Positions 15,312-32,920 of a stretch of 64,000 nt of DNA are shown in pieces (the first letter of the stretch is position 1; every line of letters begins with the position of its first letter). This stretch comes from Mobula hypostoma. Taxonomy: Eukaryota. The notes beneath the pieces are model-generated. The model was given only the letters and a program-made list of their open reading frames with translations. It did not search any database and had not been told where the DNA came from. The stretch covers positions 89,220,001-89,284,000 of the forward strand of contig NC_086097.1 of the NCBI RefSeq assembly GCF_963921235.1. The letters run 5' to 3'. The position numbers and the translations under genes were made by a program.

Positions 15312-15695
15312 ACATAGAAACATAGGTGCAGGAGTAGGCCATTTGGCCCTTCGAGCCTGCACCTCCATCCAGTATGATCATGGCTGATCATCCAACTCAG
15401 AACCCTGTACCTGCTTTCTCTCCATACACTCTGATCCCTTTAGCCACAAGGGCCATATCTAACTCCCTCTTAAATATAGCCAATGAACTGGTCTCCACTG
15501 TTTCCTGTGGCAGAGAATTCCACAGATTCACCACTCTGTGTGAAGAAGTTTTTCCTCATCTCGGTCCTAAAAGGCTTCCCCTTTATCCTCAAACTGTGAC
15601 CCCTTGTTCTGGACTTCCCCAACATCGGGAACAATCTTCCTGCATCTAGCCTGTCCAATCCCTTTAGAATTTTATACGTTTCAATAAGATCCCTC
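15312..15695 (-). mobile_element. CR1 3' end, same young subfamily as 22207-23450
   Basis: Near-identical to 22207-22600 (DLIETYKILKGLDRLDAGRLFPMLGKSRTRGHSL); catagaaa tail. Confidence 0.9.
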
Positions 15696-17654: not shown

Positions 17655-18256
17655 TTTAAGACTCGTTTTGCCTAGTGACATGATCTCGGGGGTGGTGCCT
17701 CCTACCCGGCCAAACTTTAGCACTCTCGTTTGGGTGGATGCTGCATGTTGTGTCCCCTGTGTAACGTCTGTACCCCGAAATAACATTCAGTGCACAATGT
17801 GCGGTTAAACAATTAAGATTTTATATTTAAGTATGGGGTTAGTAGAGAAACAAAAGAAAAGGAAAACAAATAAAAGACGCCAATAATCTCACAAACATGT
17901 CCAGTGCGCAATCGTTGGAGCTCACTGTTTCCCTTTCGCTGCTCCTCCGCTAGTCAGCCCCTGCGCTCCCGTCCCGAGCCCAGGCCCAGCAGGTCCAGCA
18001 ACCGTCTCCTCAAGCCACGTCTTCTCTCTTCATCCTCCTCGTGCCTTCTCTCTCAAATCCCATGCAAACAACAGCTTTCAGATACACAAGAAAGAATAAC
18101 ATCTATCCCGATTGGTTAGCAAACAAATTCAAGTCCTGTTATCACTAATTATAATCCAAACATGCTGCTACAGAGAGCATTACCTCATCAGTTAAAATTA
18201 CAGAGAAGCCATTTTATTAGCCTTAGCAAGTAACATGAAACAAGAAATCTCTTACA
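17655..18256 (-). repeat. 3' LTR
   Basis: Colinear with 19432-20038 (roughly 90% identical by eye); ends cttaca at 18256; the outer end reads tttaag instead of tgtaag. Confidence 0.9.
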
Positions 18257-18269
18257 CTCTCCCCCCACC
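18257..18269 (-). promoter_or_regulatory. Polypurine tract
   Basis: Minus strand GGTGGGGGGAGAG abutting the TG of the 3' LTR. Confidence 0.8.
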
Positions 18270-18754
18270 AAACTTAGTCATGTCCTCATGACTTCTAAAT
18301 AACTCGCCAACCCTTCCTGCAGACACAGAAACCCAATCCAGGTACAAACAGTGACATTGCTCCCCAAACAGTAGACCTTACGCCTTGTTCCCCAGGTGCT
18401 ATATAGGCCAACCTCTCTGGGAGTTTTGCTAATCCTCCGAGACCTCCATTCCCCTCACCAAAATCCTTCAGGCTGGGACACTACTGGGGATACCTTGGGT
18501 CTGCTTGCCAAATCCTCTCTCAATCTCTTACTCATGCCCCCACTGCAACTTGGAGCCTCCTGTCCTGTGTCCAGGCACCCCTGCCTCTCCTTCAGGGTCC
18601 TGCAGTAACCCAGGCTGCCCACAGCTAGAGTCCCCTCACCTTACTCAGTGGGAGAAGGGCCAGGAGTCTCTTCATCCCACAGGGGGAAGTTAGCGAAAAG
18701 CAGCGTGTACCACACCTCTATCTCATCATTCGTCGAATCCATATTCTTCCCCTT

Positions 18755-19240
18755 TTCCTCGATTTGTAGCTGCTGGTTGGTTCTCTCCACGCTGGAGCAC
18801 TTGGCCTGGACTGCTTCTGCAGCCTCTTCCGCCTCCTGTAATCGGGACAACAGCTTCTTCTTGGACTCCTCTAACTCTCGCCACAGTCTCAGCAGTTCTG
18901 GCCATCTCAATCAGGGATGCAGTTACTCCACCAGGTTCTTCCACCCTGACCTGAAAAGCAGCAGTTAAAGATTGTTCAGCCTCCAGTTTAGTGTTCACTG
19001 AACTTATCTCCAGCTTTCTCTTCCTAATGGCTTCTTCCAGGTCAGCTTTCAGTTTTTCCACTTCACTTAAGCTGTCAATGGTCATCATCAGGTTCCCTTC
19101 AAGCGTGCGCTTCCCTCTTCCGAGATCTGTCCGCAATTACTTCACCTCCTCGGAAGTGTAGTCAAACTCCCCTCTCTGGGCTCTCGGTTTTCTGTTGGCC
19201 TTAGTCAGAACACTTTTTTTGTCTTCCCCAACTTGCAACT
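18755..19240 (-). pseudogene. Processed, internally deleted sarcomeric myosin heavy-chain rod fragments (MYH16-like) inside the LTR element
   Basis: [15 protein letters not shown]...[57 protein letters not shown] / [15 protein letters not shown] / [12 protein letters not shown] / [35 protein letters not shown] match recalled myosin S2 and LMM motifs; one in-frame stop (19137-19139) and one frameshift near 18900. Confidence 0.85.
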
Positions 19241-19410
19241 GGTTCTGGATCACCTTCTCCAGTCTCTGCTGGGAATTCTGTCTCTCTGACTTCACTTCAG
19301 ACTTGATCCCGTAGAGACAGTCACTCAGCCTGTTACTAACCCCAATCCCACAGAGACACACCAGCACTGATTTTAACAGGGCAAAAACACAGCACCCTAC
19401 AAAAATCCAT

Positions 19411-19428
19411 ATCCCAGACAATCCCTCA
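19411..19428 (-). promoter_or_regulatory. Primer-binding site, tRNA-Pro-like
   Basis: Minus strand TGAGGGATTGTCTGGGAT, 3 nt downstream of the 5' LTR; 14/18 match to the canonical tRNA-Pro PBS TGGGGGCTCGTCCGGGAT, two mismatches being CpG transitions. Confidence 0.7.
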
Positions 19429-19431
19429 CAT

Positions 19432-20038
19432 TGTAAGATTCGTTTTGCCTACTGACATGATCTGGGGGGTGGCACCCCCTACCTGGCCAAACTTTAGCAC
19501 TCTCGTTTGGGTGGATGCTGCATGTTGTGTCCCCTGTGTATCATCAGTACCCCGAAATAACATTCAGTCCACAATGTGAAGTTAAATGATTAAGATTTTA
19601 TATTTAAGTATGGGGTTAGTAGAGAAACAAAAGAAAAGGAAAACAAATAAAAGGCGCCAATAATCACATAAACATGTCCAGTGCACAAACGTTGGAGCTC
19701 ATGGATTCCTTTTACTGCTCCTCCTTTGCTAGTCATCGACCCCTGGGCTCCCACCCCGAGCCCAGGCCCAGCGGGTCCGGCAACCGTCTCCTCAAGCCAC
19801 GTCATCTCTCTTCATCCTCCTCGTGCCTTCTCCCTCAAATCCCGTGCAAACAACAGCTTTCAGATACACCAGGAAGAATAACATCTATCCCAGTTGGTTA
19901 GCAAACAAATACAAGTCCCATTATCACTAATTATAATCCAAACATGTTGCTACAGAGAACATTACCTCATCAGTTAAAATTACAGAGAAGCCGTTTTATT
20001 AGCCTTAGCAAGTAACGTGAAAGAAGAAACCCCTTACA
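19432..20038 (-). repeat. 5' LTR
   Basis: tgtaag (19432-19437) ... cttaca (20033-20038), inverted termini with TG...CA. Confidence 0.9.
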
Positions 20039-22206: not shown

Positions 22207-23450
22207 ATAGAAACATAGAAAATAGGTGCAGGAGTAGGCCATTCGGCCCTTCGAGCCTGCACCGCCATTTATTATGATCATGGCTGATCATCCAACTCAG
22301 AACCCTGCACCAGCCTTCCCTCCATACCCCCTGATCCCCGTAGCCACAAGGGCCATATCTAACTCCCTCTTAAATATAGCCAATGAACTGGCCTCAACTG
22401 TTTCCTGTGGCAGAGAATTCCACAGATTCACCACTCTCTGTGTGAAGAAGTTTTTCCTAATCTCGGTCCTAAAAGGCTTCCCCTTTATCCTCAAACTGTG
22501 ACCCCTCGTTCTGGACTTCCCCAACATCGGGAACAATCTTCCTGCATCTAGCCTGTCCAATCCCTTTAGGATTTTATACGTTTCAATCAGATCCCCCCTC
22601 AATCTTCTAAATTCCAACGAGTACAAGCCCAGCTCATCCAGTCTTTCTTCATATGAAAGACCTGCCATCCCAGGAATCAATCTGGTGAACCTTCTTTGTA
22701 CTCCCTCTATGGCAAGGATGTCTTTCCTCAGATTAGGGGACCAAAACTGCACACAATACTCCAGGTGTGGTCTCACCAAGGCCTTGTACAACTGCAGTAG
22801 TACCTCCCTGCTCCTGTACTCGAATACTCTCGCTATAAATGCCAGCATACCATTCGCCTTTTTCACCGCCTGCTGTACCTGCATGCCCACTTTCAATGAC
22901 TGGTGTATAATGACACCCAGGTCTTGTTGCACCTCCCCTTTTCCTAATCGGCTACCATTCAGATAATAATCTGTTTTCCTATTTTTGCCACCAAAGTGGA
23001 TAACTTCACACTTATCCACATTAAATTGCATCTGCCATGAATTTGCCCACTCACCCAACCTATCCAAGTCACTCTGCATCCTCTTAGCATCCTCCTCACA
23101 GCTAACACTGCCACCCAGCTTCGTGTCATCCGCAAACTTGGAGATGCTGCATTTAATTCCCTCATCCAAGTCATTAATATATATTGTAAACAACTGGGGT
23201 CCCAGCACTGAGCCTTGCGGTACCCCACTAGTCACTGCCTGCCATTCTGAAAAGGTCCCGTTTATTCCCACTCTTAGCTTCCTGTCTGCTAACCAATTCT
23301 CTATCCACATCAATACCTTACCCCCAATACCGTGTGCTTTAAGTTTGCACACTAATCTCCTGTGTGGGACCTTGTCAAAAGCCTTTTGAAAATCCAAATA
23401 TACCACATCCACTGGTTCTCCCCTATCCACTCTACTCGTTACATCCTCAA
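22207..23450 (-). mobile_element. Young 5'-truncated CR1 LINE with an uninterrupted RT reading frame (ORF 22297-23430, 377 aa)
   Basis: YLDFQKAFDKV, GVPQGSVLGP, ISKFADDTKL and RPHLEYCVQFWSP motifs with no stops or frameshifts; (catagaaa)n tail. Confidence 0.95.
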
Positions 23451-24210
23451 TATGTCAATTAACCGCTAATGAAACAGCTGCCTTGAGGCTTGTGCTGTGT
23501 TAGGTGGTTATTTATTGTAATGTTACACAGTTATAGCTGAGTTACCTGGTGACTGCCAAACTTGACACAAATAATTAAATGTGCCAAGTAACCCAATTCG
23601 GCCTGGCTATTTGCTCTCTGCTGCCCTATAACTGGCCCGGGCCTACGCGTTCTCTTCACGATCCTATCTCTGGGTTGGGTGCTTCCCTTGAATTATCAGT
23701 CATTGTGGGACGCTAGTTGGAAAACCAAGCTCATACTGCATTATGCTTCAAATGCTGGGAGTGTATGAGAGACATTAACAAAATGCAGGAGGGCAGGACA
23801 CTCTTTCAATGATGATATTGAAATACTATAGAACAGAACAGTGCGGGGACAGGCACTTCATTACCAACTACTATGCAATCTAACTCGTGCTATCTGCCAG
23901 CATGAGGTCGATGTCCCTCTATTCCATGCCTGTTCAAGTCTGTCTAAATTCCTCTTGAACTTTCCTATCATATCTGCTTCACCACCGACTCTGGCAGCAC
24001 ATTCCAGACAATTGCCATTCTCTGCAAAACAAAACTTGCCTTGCTCGCTTTAAACCTATGTCCTCTAATATCTGACATCTCTGTCTGAAAAAAAGACTCT
24101 GGAGGAGTATAGAAGGATGTCTTGGTGGTAGGGAAGCATGTCAGTATCTGTGGAAAAAAGTACAGTCGACGTTTCGGCCCAAAATGTCGACTCTGCTTTT
24201 TTCCATAGAT

Positions 24211-28696: not shown

Positions 28697-31600
28697 GGTG
28701 GCATGGTAGCGTAGTGGTTAGCACAACGCTTTACAGTACCAGTGACCCAAGTTCAATTCCCATTGCTGCCTGTAAGGAGTTTGTACGTCCTCCTCGTGAC
28801 TGCATGGGTTTCCTCTGGGTGCTCCAGTTTCCTCCCATAGTCTAAAGGTTGGCAGTTTAATTGGTCATTATCTCCTTCTTTTCTTTTCAAATCTTTTTAT
28901 TGTTATACACAGGAAAAATAACATGAGTACATCGAAGTAACAACACTTACAATGCCTCAAAAAAAATTATCTTAAGGATTGAAAAAAAATTTTGTGATAA
29001 CAAAAAAAACCTACTGAGCAGAAAAGTGAGGAAAAAAAAGAACCCATTAGGTATACAACCCCATAGTTATGCGTCATACAAAAAACTTCTAAAAATAAAC
29101 ATCAAACTGCCAGCAAGAAAAGAAAATATACTAAAAAAATTTACAATTAGATCGTGGAAAAATTATATCAATTAACTCAAATGATAATAACGAGCAAATG
29201 AGCCCCATCTTTTCTCAAAATCAAATAAAGGTTCAAAGGTTCAACTTCTAATTTTTTCCAAACTAAGACATAGCATCACTTGAGAGAACCATTGTGACGA
29301 AGTGGGAGCTGATGTATCCTTCCACTTCAACAAAATGGCCCTCCTAGCTATCAATGTAACAAATGCAATAACATGTTGGTCAGACACAGAAATACCATGA
29401 ATATTTTGAGGAACTATTCCAAAGAGCACAGTTAATTTATTAGGTTGTAAATTAATTTTAAGTGCTTTAGAAATTGTTGAGAAAACCGACTTCCAGAACT
29501 GTTCCAATATAGAACAAGACCAAAACATATGTGTCAGTGTAGCTATCTCAGTTTTACATCTATCACAATGACTATCAACATTAGGAATGATTTTAGAAAG
29601 CCTCTCCTTTGTCAAATGATAGTGATGTACAATTTTAAATTGAATCAATGAATGGCTAGCACAAATTGAAGAAGAGTTAACTAACTTCAATATCCGCATC
29701 CAATCCTCCGTCATAAAAGTCAAATTAAGTTCCTTTTCCCAATCCTGTTTAATCTTAGATAATAAATTATAAATTCTTCCAATAGAACACTTAATCAAAG
29801 GATTCATACTCATAATAGTATCTAACAGGTCAGCCTCCAAAATGTAGGGAAAATTGCTTAAATATGTTTGTAAAAAATATCTAACTTGAAAGTATTGCAG
29901 AAAGTGTGAGTATGAAAGAGAATATTTATCAATTAATTGTTCAAAAGACATCAATCTATCTTCTTTAAATAAATCCAAAAAAGAATTAATACCTTTATTT
30001 TTCCAAAGCAAAAAAAATTGGATCACTCAAAGAAAGCTTAAAAAAGTAATTTCGGTAAATTAAACTACAAAGTTTAAATTTTTTAAGATTAAAAAAATTG
30101 CGGAACTGCAGCCAAATTTGTAAAGAATACCTAATCACAGGATATAGGTATAAATTAACAACTTTACCTAATTGCATAGGTAAAGGAGCTCCCAATAATG
30201 AGGTTAAATAAAACTGTTTTACAACTTTCAGTTCCAGGTCTACCCAAATTGGCCGATCACTCTTATCAACCCAGTATAACCAAAAAGACATATATCGTGC
30301 ATTAATAGCCCGATGATACATTCTAAAATTAGGCAAAGCAAGACCTCCATCCTTTTTCAATTTTTGTAAATGACATTTACTAATTCTTGGTCTTTTATTA
30401 TTCCAAATAAAAGATAAAATAATAGAATCAATCCGATCAAAAAACTTACTAGTCAAAAAAACAGGAATATTCTGAAATAAATATAAAAAATTCAATAAAA
30501 TCATCATTTTAACTATATGAATACGACCAACAAGTGAACATGTAAGTGGACTCCATCTACTAAATAAATACATCATACAGTCTACTAAGGGAACAAAATT
30601 TGCTTTATAAAGATCCTTATATTTTTTAGTAATTATAATACCTAAATATCTAAAAGAGTCTGAAACTTTAAAAGGAGTATTATCATATATAGAGACAGAA
30701 TCATTTAAATGAAACAATTCACTTTTACTAAAACTTATTTTATATCCTGAAAAACCTCCAAATTCATTAAATAATTTTAGCAAGGCAGGAATGGATTTGT
30801 CAGGGTTAGATATATAAACCAATAAATCATCAGCATAAAGAGAGCCCTTATGCATGGTCTCATTCACAAAGATCCCATGGATATTTTTAACCTCACGAAG
30901 AGCAATAGCAAGGGGTTCTAATATTAAATTAAACAACAAAGGTCTTAATGGACAGCCTTGCCTTGTCCCCCATGAAAGCTGAAAAAAAGGAGACCTACAA
31001 TTGTTAGTTACAACAGTAGCAATAGGGGCTTTATATATCATTTTAATCCAATTATTAAAATTAACACCAAAGCCAAATCTCTCTAAAACATTGAATAAAT
31101 ATTTCCATTCGACTCGGTCGAACGCTTTTTCAGCATCCAAAGATACAACACATTGTGAAGTTTTAGAAGAGGATGAATATATAATGTTAAATAGTCTCTG
31201 AACATTTGAAAAAAGAATAGCAACCCTTTTTAAAGCCTGTTTGATCTTTACAAATAATTTTACCCAAAATATTCTCCAACCGATTGGCCATTATCTTTGA
31301 CAAAATCTTAGCGTCAACATTCAGTAATGAAATAGGTCTATATGAAGCACAGTCAGTAGGATCTTTATCTTTTTTAAGAATTAAAGAAATAGAAGCCTCA
31401 TAAAAAGTAGAGGATAAGTCACCTTTCACAAAAGAATCCTTAAACATTTCCAACATATACGGAGAGAGCAACTTTCCAAATTTTTTATAAAATTCTACAG
31501 GATAGCCATCAAGTCCTAGGGACTTGACAGATTGCATTGAAAAAATAGCTTTATGAATTTCGGCTTCAGTAATTTGAGCATCGAGAGTTTTTTGATCCTC

Positions 31601-32920
31601 AGCTGAGATTTTAGGAAAAACAATCTTTTATAAAAAAGCATTCATTTTTGAGGAATCTAACAGACATTGAGATTTATATAGCTCAGCATAAAAATCTTGA
31701 AAAATCTTATTAATTTCTTCATATTCCTGAGCTAAGGTACCATCTTTCCTACAAATTTTCATGATTTGCCTTTTGGCTGCAGCCATTTTTAATTGAGATG
31801 TAAGCAGTTTATTATTTTTAACTCCAGACATATAAAATTGGCTCTATAACTTAAGCAAATAACCTTCAATGGGATGAGTTAATAACAGGTTATATTGTGA
31901 TTGAAGTTCCACCCTTTGTTTAAATAAATCAGTATTGGGGGAAATTGCATAAATATTATCTAAATCTTTAATTTGTTTTGAAATTTTATCTAATTCTGCT
32001 TTAGTTTGTTTTTTAAGTTTAGCTGAATAAGAAATAATCTGACCACGTAAAAATGCTTTAAATGTATCCCATATAACTAATTTAGACGTACCCCCTATAT
32101 CATTAAAAAGAAAAAATTCTTTTATCTGGGTTTCAATGAAACTGACCAAGTCAGAGTTTTGCAATAATGTCTGAGACAGGCAAGAATGACATCATCAAAT
32201 TCAAAAGACAAACTCAGAGGCGCATGATCAGATATAGCAATAGCGTCATATTTGCAAGTTTTAACACTAGGCAAGAAGCAGGGATCGATTATAATATAAT
32301 ATTTTTTATAAACATGTGAGAAGAAAGAATATTTTCTATTATTGGGATGAAGATACCTCCACAAACCAATCAACCCAAAATCAATCAAAAAGGAATTAAT
32401 AAATGATGCAGATCGATTTGGAAGTCGCTGATTGGTTGAGCTCTTATCAATCATAGGATTTAAACAGCAATTAAAATCCCCACCCATTATGAGCATATAT
32501 TCATTTAAGTCAGGCAGTAAAGCAAATACCTTTTTAAAAAAAGAAGGATCATCTAAGTTAGGACCATACAAATTAACCAAAACAACTTTTCTGTTACAGA
32601 TTGTTCCTTTAACAATTAAAAATCTACCATTAGAATCTGATTCAATATCCTCTTGAATAAATATATTAGGTTTAATGAAAATAGACACACCTTTTGTTTT
32701 ACTCTGAGAAGTAGAGTGGAATTGCAAACCATTACACCATCTAAAAAATCTATTTTGATCTCCCGCCCTGATATGTGTCTCTTGAGCAAAAATTATATCA
32801 GGTTGGAATCTGGTCATTGTCTCTTGATTAGACTAGAATTAAATTGGATGGGTTGCTGAGCGGCGCAGCTCAAAGGGCCAGATCCACATTGTAGGACAAT
32901 AAATAATAAAATAAATAAAA
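28697..32920 (+). mobile_element. V-SINE (HE1-like) split by an L1: 5' part 28697-28874, 3' part 32811-32920
   Basis: tRNA-like head (tagcgtagtgg / gttcaattccc), V-domain-like ggagtttgtacgt...gggtttcctctgggtgctccagtttcctccca; the tail resumes after the L1. Confidence 0.75.
28875..32810 (-). mobile_element. L1-clade LINE with nearly complete but frameshifted ORF2 (EN, RT, Cys-rich C-terminus)
   Basis: AQETH, NLYGPN, GGDFNC, SDHAP; YRPISLLN, DAEKAFDRV, GTRQGCPL, LYADD; CDRC...HMFWSC; TSD tggtcattatctc (28862-28874) / tggtcattgtctc (32811-32823). Confidence 0.93.

What the first reader, a model, noticed from the sequence alone, without database searches (positions are those of the whole stretch)
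17655..20038. LTR retroelement whose cargo is spliced sarcomeric myosin (MYH16-like) rod sequence instead of gag/pol
Seen: two ~600-bp LTRs with TG..CA ends, a tRNA-Pro-like PBS and a PPT, all on the minus strand. Between them are 1175 bp with no retroviral protein motifs, but about 490 bp translate to myosin coiled-coil motifs in the element's sense orientation. Knowledge: these resemble class II sarcomeric myosin rod segments (LQAEEDK...[56 protein letters not shown]). The residues MTIDSL, LEISSVN and ELLRL.RELEE fit recalled MYH16 better than other MYHs. The first block runs across positions where MYH genes normally have introns. Inference: a host mRNA was captured by template switching during reverse transcription, giving a mobilisable non-autonomous family that spreads myosin coding sequence, comparable to retroviral oncogene transduction. 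The frame starts just after the PBS with a hydrophobic stretch and has only one stop and one frameshift, so the ancestor may have encoded a chimeric membrane-anchored coiled-coil protein.
Basis: partly seen in the sequence, partly recalled or inferred. Interest (0 to 1): 0.87.

Follow-up and report, generated by a model that had tools for sequence, protein, structure and literature searches.

The report
Ray retrotransposon carrying spliced myosin fragment
This is one shortened, decayed copy of a ray retrotransposon family, found at many places in the genome, whose protein-coding frame holds an intron-free piece of a host muscle-myosin gene, likely picked up from that gene's messenger RNA by a copying slip and then likely carried along as a passenger; the source is a second MYH16-like gene rather than MYH16 itself.

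Summary
In detail: two LTRs (92% alike) flank spliced sarcomeric-myosin rod sequence. The reading "instead of gag/pol" does not. The window copy has lost about 1.9 kb. Typical copies are Gypsy elements of about 4.3 kb (older ones 5-6 kb) with PNMA-like gag, protease, broken RT and an RNase H remnant, then myosin in the same frame, then the pol tail. They have 4-bp target-site duplications; two searches gave 784 and 705 candidates (40 scored each), and copies are annotated as false genes in four stingray and devil-ray species. The donor is not the MYH16 orthologue (60% DNA identity) but another intron-bearing MYH16-type gene on G000:C68 (up to 93%), whose exons span 182 kb and are joined in the cargo. 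Both capture junctions show 12-13 nt microhomology. An integrase-less, myosin-free sister shares the cargo's integrase-deletion junction, so integrase loss likely came first. Later deletions mostly keep the frame, but amino-acid constraint on the cargo is not significant (p=0.08). This is known LTR-mediated retroposition at an unusual scale. The scan noted the family before on another copy (e1-7808887); donor and order of events are new here.

The parts
19432..20038 (-). 5' LTR (TGTAAG...TTACA)
19411..19428 (-). degenerate primer-binding site, 3 nt after the LTR; clean in copies L033, L035, L051 (tRNA-Pro fit is recalled)
19328..19410 (-). leader before gag; source of the 'hydrophobic stretch', no Met in frame
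19322..19327 (-). deletion junction of this copy: 6-nt microhomology, about 1.93 kb of gag-protease-RT missing relative to L037
19271..19321 (-). RNase H remnant (matches residues about 729-749 of the autonomous Gypsy pol P0274)
18951..19270 (-). myosin block A, donor codons 988-1097 (P0082 numbering), 85% identity; crosses exon junctions 996, 1025, 1074; stop at 19137-19139
18862..18943 (-). myosin block B, donor codons 1142-1173, 76%; crosses junction 1152; private 14-nt deletion shifts the frame
18751..18877 (-). myosin block C, donor codons 1377-1412 plus the 12-nt 3' capture microhomology, 88%; crosses junction 1382
18271..18750 (-). Gypsy pol C-terminal tail (acidic stretch and VWY motif onward), homologous to the post-integrase tail of P0274 and of sister elements
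18257..18270 (-). polypurine tract
17655..18256 (-). 3' LTR (ends TTAAA; no target-site duplication in this copy)

Best explanation
The element is a deleted copy of a Gypsy LTR retrotransposon family without integrase whose pol frame holds spliced rod sequence of a host MYH16-like gene on G000:C68, likely captured by a double template switch during reverse transcription and then likely copied in trans by integrase-bearing relatives. Steps: (1) a Gypsy element lost its integrase by an in-frame deletion (shown: myosin-free relatives with that junction exist; order inferred); (2) reverse transcriptase jumped onto a co-packaged myosin mRNA at a 13-nt microhomology just after RNase H and jumped back about 527 codons later at a 12-nt microhomology, replacing about 57 nt of linker (junctions shown; mechanism inferred); (3) the chimera spread and split into subfamilies that deleted different parts of gag, RT, RNase H and the cargo, mostly in frame (shown); (4) the frame was probably kept because the RNA had to be translated through (for example to escape nonsense-mediated decay or for cis-packaging), while the myosin residues drifted almost neutrally (inferred); (5) the sampled copies then decayed, LTR pairs now differing by 5-12% (shown); the window copy additionally lost gag-protease-RT.
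For: Multi-copy: 784 candidates, all 40 scored match; 705 candidates with an upstream cargo part, 40 scored. Anatomy: 19 of 20 fetched copies show 5' LTR sequence 2-4 kb upstream of the cargo; 4-bp TSD exact in 9 and one mismatch in 3 of 14 copies with both ends printed; PNMA gag E 7e-13, RVT_1 E 2e-12; natural single frames RT-RNase H-myosin (P0003, 390 aa), RT-myosin-tail (L112, 425 aa) and gag-to-tail in a stingray (P0005, 729 aa). Donor: nine cargo-overlapping exons colinear on C68:14,524,967-14,707,480 with AG/GT ends and an open frame; oldest copies 90-93% identical, L053 crossing 8 exon junctions. Junction microhomologies 12 of 13 and 10 of 12 nt. Integrase-less myosin-free relatives: 4 of 25 RNase H hits lacked an integrase core; L165, L146, L149 show the same linker-to-tail junction as the cargo. 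Integrase-bearing sisters: 78-86% in RNase H and tail, 66-75% in LTR. Frame: 17 of 21 junction classes seen in 3 or more copies are mostly in frame. Mechanism known from Tan et al. 2016 (PMC5131818, abstract, sections 6 and 9 read).
Against: Sister LTRs are only 66-75% alike, so the actual helper is not identified. The DNA-level frame test against decayed sisters gave only 9 of 16 and 4 of 16 shared deletions in frame; those references carry frameshifts of their own, but the test does not support the claim. Four of 21 junction classes were not mostly in frame, gag was not tested there, and private cargo deletions were in frame in 4 of 8, so microhomology in repetitive coiled-coil codons may explain part of the bias. 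The 5' junction lies at a donor exon start, so splicing from an element inserted upstream is not excluded there. No copy carries donor codons 1174-1376; the 527-codon original is inferred.
Confidence: 0.88

Rival explanations
1. The myosin coiled coil was useful to the element: the Gag-protease-RT-myosin fusion was translated and the rod helped it oligomerise or co-assemble with helper particles, which explains the family's spread.
For: Capture in frame at both ends; every cargo-bearing subfamily keeps some rod, and block C is seen in nearly all of 62 loci; 17 of 21 junction classes in frame; block 988-1096 shows fewer non-synonymous shared changes than private ones (22 syn/41 non-syn against 36/162); myosin-bearing hits outnumber the myosin-free integrase-less ones seen.
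Against: Over all four blocks shared changes are 52 syn/115 non-syn against private 113/358, p=0.08; block 886-985 shows no constraint (12/43 against 49/119); shared stops 4 of 171 against 24 of 495, p=0.19. Subfamilies delete different and large parts of the rod. Pol deletions that wreck RT are also in frame, so frame keeping is not specific to the myosin.
Confidence: 0.15
2. A LINE-made retrocopy of the myosin mRNA landed inside an existing LTR element, which then multiplied.
For: LINE remnants are common in this window; the cargo is spliced.
Against: No poly(A) or duplication at the cargo ends; element sequence is replaced, not interrupted; both ends are internal to the mRNA and sit on microhomology.
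Confidence: 0.03
3. The 5' junction arose by read-through and splicing from an element inserted in the donor's intron (the oncogene-transduction route), and only the 3' junction by template switch.
For: The cargo begins at the first base of donor exon 886-961.
Against: The element has no GT donor at that point in the relatives shown, and homology runs 11 nt into the exon, as a template switch predicts.
Confidence: 0.08
4. One reading: MYH16 mRNA replaced gag and pol outright, giving a membrane-anchored coiled-coil gene.
For: The window copy alone looks like this; MYH16 proteins are the best database hits.
Against: Full copies keep gag-protease-RT; identity to the C36 MYH16 gene is about 60% with saturated third positions against up to 93% to the C68 gene; no Met in the hydrophobic frame.
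Confidence: 0.02

Closest known systems
LTR-mediated retroposition in metazoans (Tan et al. 2016, PMC5131818; abstract, sections 6 and 9 read)
   Same: Partial, spliced mRNA between LTR-element halves; microsimilarity at both switch points; no poly(A); secondary retroposition as a non-autonomous element; sense orientation.
   Different: Their cases are young single or few-copy loci (5 in zebrafish, 8 in mouse); here one capture founded several subfamilies with hundreds of candidate copies, present in two ray families, fused in frame into the polyprotein.
Maize Bs1 (as described in Tan et al. 2016, Discussion)
   Same: LTR element carrying host exons, with shared switch points in all copies.
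   Different: Bs1 has 1-5 copies and three parent genes; this has one parent, a vertebrate host and far more copies.
Gypsy elements with PNMA-type gag (Barthez lineage per the table in Kokosar and Kordis 2013, PMC3670739; passages read)
   Same: PF14893 gag, protease-RT-RNase H-integrase order in sisters and in P0274, 4-bp TSD.
   Different: Integrase absent, RT and RNase H internally deleted, host myosin in pol. Lineage name rests on the PNMA hit only; no RT tree was built.
Acutely transforming retroviruses / oncogene transduction (recalled)
   Same: Defective element, host coding sequence fused in frame to viral genes, helper-dependent.
   Different: Germline retrotransposon without env; no evidence that the cargo gives an advantage.
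MYH16 (Lee et al. 2019 review, PMC6402096; passages read)
   Same: The donor has MYH16's rod exon sizes and groups on the MYH16 side of the tree (100/100).
   Different: The donor is 56% identical to this genome's MYH16 and at most 59% to any myosin fetched, falls outside the gnathostome MYH16 group (90/96, long branch), and no motor-domain exon was found near it.

Membership tests
Ty3/Gypsy LTR retrotransposon | LTRs with TG...CA ends, PBS, PPT | tested here: met
   the window's 3' LTR end is mutated
Ty3/Gypsy LTR retrotransposon | short target-site duplication | tested here: met
   4 bp, exact in 9 and near in 3 of 14 copies; absent in the window copy
Ty3/Gypsy LTR retrotransposon | gag, then protease-RT-RNase H-integrase order | tested here: met
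   gag-protease-RT-RNase H in cargo copies; integrase after RNase H in sisters and P0274
Ty3/Gypsy LTR retrotransposon | RT phylogeny places it in a named Gypsy clade (Barthez) | not tested
   only the PNMA gag hit and a literature table
Autonomous LTR retrotransposon | integrase and complete RT/RNase H | tested here: not met
   no integrase between RNase H and tail in L051, L053, L043 or the window; RT deletions shared by many copies
LTR-mediated retrocopy (Tan et al. 2016) | partial mRNA, introns absent | tested here: met
   up to 8 exon junctions crossed; 182 kb of gene in under 1 kb of cargo
LTR-mediated retrocopy (Tan et al. 2016) | microsimilarity at both switch points, no L1 hallmarks | tested here: met
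   12 of 13 and 10 of 12 nt
LTR-mediated retrocopy (Tan et al. 2016) | secondary retroposition of the chimera | tested here: met
   62 loci compared, shared junctions, separate TSDs
LTR-mediated retrocopy (Tan et al. 2016) | co-transcription from the LTR | tested here: inconclusive
   only contigs of runs guessed to be RNA
MYH16 orthologue as donor | cargo closest to the genome's MYH16 gene | tested here: not met
   about 60% to C36 MYH16 against 76-94% to the C68 gene
Sarcomeric myosin heavy chain (donor gene) | motor domain upstream of the rod | tested here: inconclusive
   conserved motor exon found at 11 sarcomeric-type loci, none near C68:14.5 Mb, 54 of 54 candidates scored; no neck exon in 19.5 kb upstream; introns here reach 39 kb and the assembly may have gaps

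The most novel reading that the evidence does not exclude
A retrotransposon domesticated a host gene: after losing integrase, a ray Gypsy element took up the coiled-coil rod of an undescribed, possibly headless MYH16 paralogue, kept it translated in frame in its polyprotein through a dozen later rearrangements, and owed its spread to hundreds of copies across stingrays and devil rays to that fusion.
Probability: 0.15. Interest if true: 0.85.

Novelty: new variant of a known kind. Interest (0 to 1): 0.58.

Why it matters
It is a vertebrate case in which every stage of gene capture by an LTR element is still in one genome: integrase-bearing sister, integrase-less intermediate, intron-bearing donor, longest cargo and its deletion series. 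That makes two open points testable with many replicates: whether defective elements are selected to keep an open frame regardless of what it encodes, and whether captured host sequence can help an element. It exposes a second MYH16-type gene in rays that none of three protein searches returned and that may lack a motor domain. It also explains false 'myosin-like', 'MYH16' and 'TMEM192 isoform' gene models in ray annotations, and the repeats may hide the donor's exons from annotation (inference).

Tried and rejected
Pfam on the window's three frames: no myosin or retroelement family at threshold. Hypothesis of horizontal transfer from a bony fish, or of long purifying selection inside the element: raised by saturated third positions against C36 MYH16, by the tree (AU p=0.13 and 0.048) and by mixed diagnostic residues (18 MYH16, 14 other-MYH, 14 neither of 46); dropped when the C68 donor was found. 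Those dN/dS figures against C36 are void as tests of selection on the cargo. 'Myosin replaced integrase in one step': held, dropped. (shared against private changes by region) was mixed: myosin 985-1095 p=0.002, protease p=0.025, myosin 890-985 opposite p=0.005, four regions not significant; CpG sites were not set apart although its header says so; superseded. The 106-nt out-of-frame deletion is an alignment artefact: the three copies read in frame. First set of 20 integrase-bearing loci: no LTR homology seen in the stretches held, 65-79% elsewhere; not the helper. Sequencing runs: no RNA holder listed; four runs guessed to be RNA cover all 30 bins as contigs, and loose ends in X18 and X20 continue into donor-gene sequence, but contigs cannot show transcription. 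Atlas searches gave only generic myosin-tail clusters. No tRNA gene in the window. Literature searches for a prior description listed none; Repbase and Dfam could not be searched, and no supplements were read, so a deposited repeat entry or a gene name in a supplement may exist. No structure or complex prediction was run.

Full report
Observation. The minus strand holds two LTRs, 19432-20038 and 17655-18256, identical at 554 of 602 aligned bases, a polypurine tract and a degenerate PBS. The 3' LTR ends in TAAA and there is no target-site duplication in this copy. Frames between them hit sarcomeric myosin rods in the PDB. The myosin is real, but about half of the interior is retroelement pol (below).

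The family. The window lies at G000:C1:89,220,001-89,284,000. A search with the interior gave 784 first-look candidates; all 40 scored matched at 80-100%. A search with a more upstream part of the cargo gave 705 candidates, 40 scored. These are not copy numbers, but hundreds of copies are likely. Of 20 copies fetched with long flanks, 19 show 5' LTR sequence 2-4 kb upstream, with about 2 kb that the window copy lacks. That stretch holds PNMA-type gag, a protease motif and part of RT. Target-site duplications are 4 bp: exact in 9 and one mismatch in 3 of the 14 copies with both ends printed. The window's deletion of about 1.93 kb sits on a 6-nt microhomology and was seen in 1 of the 30 best loci. 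LTR pairs differ by 5.4-11.8% in the 27 of 36 copies where a pair could be measured, 8.1% in the window; the sample is best hits, not a census. Database proteins from Hypanus sabinus, Hemitrygon akajei, Mobula hypostoma and M. birostris are copies; the two species looked up belong to two families of Myliobatiformes, so the host is most likely a ray of that order and the capture likely predates their split.

Where the cargo sits. The closest intact relative, P0274, has RT, RNase H and integrase domains and shares both the RNase H end and the C-terminal tail with the element. In older copies the order is gag, protease, RT, RNase H, myosin, tail. Of 25 RNase H relatives without myosin, 21 have an integrase core and 4 do not. 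Full sisters L164 and L166-L168 are 78-86% alike in RNase H and tail and 66-75% in the LTR: plausible helpers by descent, though the actual helper is not shown. The integrase-less relatives L165, L146 and L149 join linker to tail at the same place as the cargo's 3' side. So the myosin replaced about 57 nt of linker in an element that had likely already lost integrase. This corrects my own earlier reading and that of note e1-7808887, which found the family on another copy.

The donor. Protein searches rank MYH16 first (120-139 bits against at most 108 for other myosins), but never above 48% identity. The genome's MYH16 on C36 is only about 60% identical in DNA, with third positions near saturation, and the cargo carried 18 MYH16, 14 other-myosin and 14 other residues at 46 diagnostic sites. 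A second gene on C68 explains this. Patterns made of cargo sequence plus a splice dinucleotide located its exons in order. They have MYH16's exon sizes, AG/GT ends and an open frame, and span 182 kb. The oldest copies match it at 90-93%; L053 runs 886-1173 and 1377-1412 across 8 exon junctions; the window copy crosses 5. Both capture points show microhomology between donor and element: 12 of 13 nt at the 5' side and 10 of 12 at the 3' side, with no poly(A). The donor groups on the MYH16 side of the tree (100/100) but outside gnathostome MYH16 (90/96) on a long branch whose place is unsure. A conserved motor exon was found at 11 sarcomeric-type loci and none near it; 19.5 kb upstream held no neck exon. 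It may be headless; this is open.

Frame and selection. Natural single frames run RT-RNase H-myosin, RT-myosin-tail and, in a stingray, gag to tail. Subfamilies deleted different parts of the cargo. Of 21 junction classes seen in 3 or more copies, 17 are mostly in frame (classes are not independent, gag not covered; two of the four exceptions flank one short off-frame match that I did not check further). Against the intact donor, 5 of 6 shared deletions were in frame, the sixth also on inspection, against 4 of 8 private ones. Against decayed sisters the count was 9 of 16 and 4 of 16, which does not support the claim, though those references have frameshifts. With the donor as reference, changes shared by subfamilies were 52 synonymous and 115 non-synonymous, private ones 113 and 358 (p=0.08; non-CpG p=0.06); only block 988-1096 shows constraint. 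The frame most often ends about 62 codons after the tail motif, in cargo and cargo-free copies alike (32 of 62 copies had the motif). I read this as selection for read-through with a nearly neutral passenger; why read-through mattered is inference from general knowledge of nonsense-mediated decay and cis-packaging.

Comparison. Tan et al. 2016 (PMC5131818; abstract, sections 6 and 9 read) describe this mechanism in animals, with partial mRNAs, microsimilarity and secondary retroposition, and give 1-5 copies for maize Bs1. Kokosar and Kordis 2013 (PMC3670739; passages) list PNMA under the Barthez lineage. Lee et al. 2019 (PMC6402096; passages) call MYH16 the most distant vertebrate sarcomeric myosin and, in the passages seen, name no second gene of its type. 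PxyMasc retrocopies and crocodilian ERV gene capture were seen as search listings only. Nine searches listed no paper on this family or donor; repeat databases and supplements were not seen.

Verdict. Real; a known mechanism; unusual in scale, in-frame fusion, the preserved intermediate and the donor. New variant of a known kind, interest 0.58.

Noticed in passing
G000:C68:14,524,967-14,707,480 (+); loci L091, L169, L070, L177, L179-L183: An MYH16-type rod gene with open frame and AG/GT exon ends, introns of 3-39 kb, 56% identical to this genome's MYH16 and at most 59% to any myosin fetched; not returned by three protein searches; no motor-domain exon found nearby, so it may be headless or lie over an assembly gap.
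   Followed up: partly
G000:C36:112,708,001-112,766,823 (-); L077-L083: The MYH16 orthologue, 41 exon matches in the 70 kb fetched, 89% identical to a shark MYH16 over residues 827-1497.
   Followed up: yes
G000:C68:15.30-15.90 Mb: Tandem cluster of at least 8 fast-type myosin genes, 0.6 Mb from the donor.
   Followed up: no
L165, L146, L149, L159: Integrase-less Gypsy relatives without myosin; L146 shows the in-frame linker-to-tail junction clearly.
   Followed up: partly
P0001, P0002, P0005, P0125-P0127, P0129-P0131, P0134: Database proteins from Mobula hypostoma, M. birostris, Hypanus sabinus and Hemitrygon akajei named as myosin-like, MYH16 or a TMEM192 isoform are copies of this element; P0135 joins an unrelated N-terminus to cargo and tail, perhaps an exonised copy.
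   Followed up: partly
window 29244-32832 (-) and 22300-23454 (-): Long frames that look like LINE endonuclease/RT remnants (family names not tested); a 390-bp direct repeat at 15319-15693 and 22219-22595.
   Followed up: no
L167:5836-7401 against donor codons 886-1412: The linker-plus-integrase segment of the sister (about 1,565 bp) and the inferred original cargo (about 1,580 bp) have nearly the same length; probably chance, but a size constraint on packaging is possible.
   Followed up: no
L017: Another copy with the 5' LTR directly before the cargo, by a different deletion from the window's.
   Followed up: no
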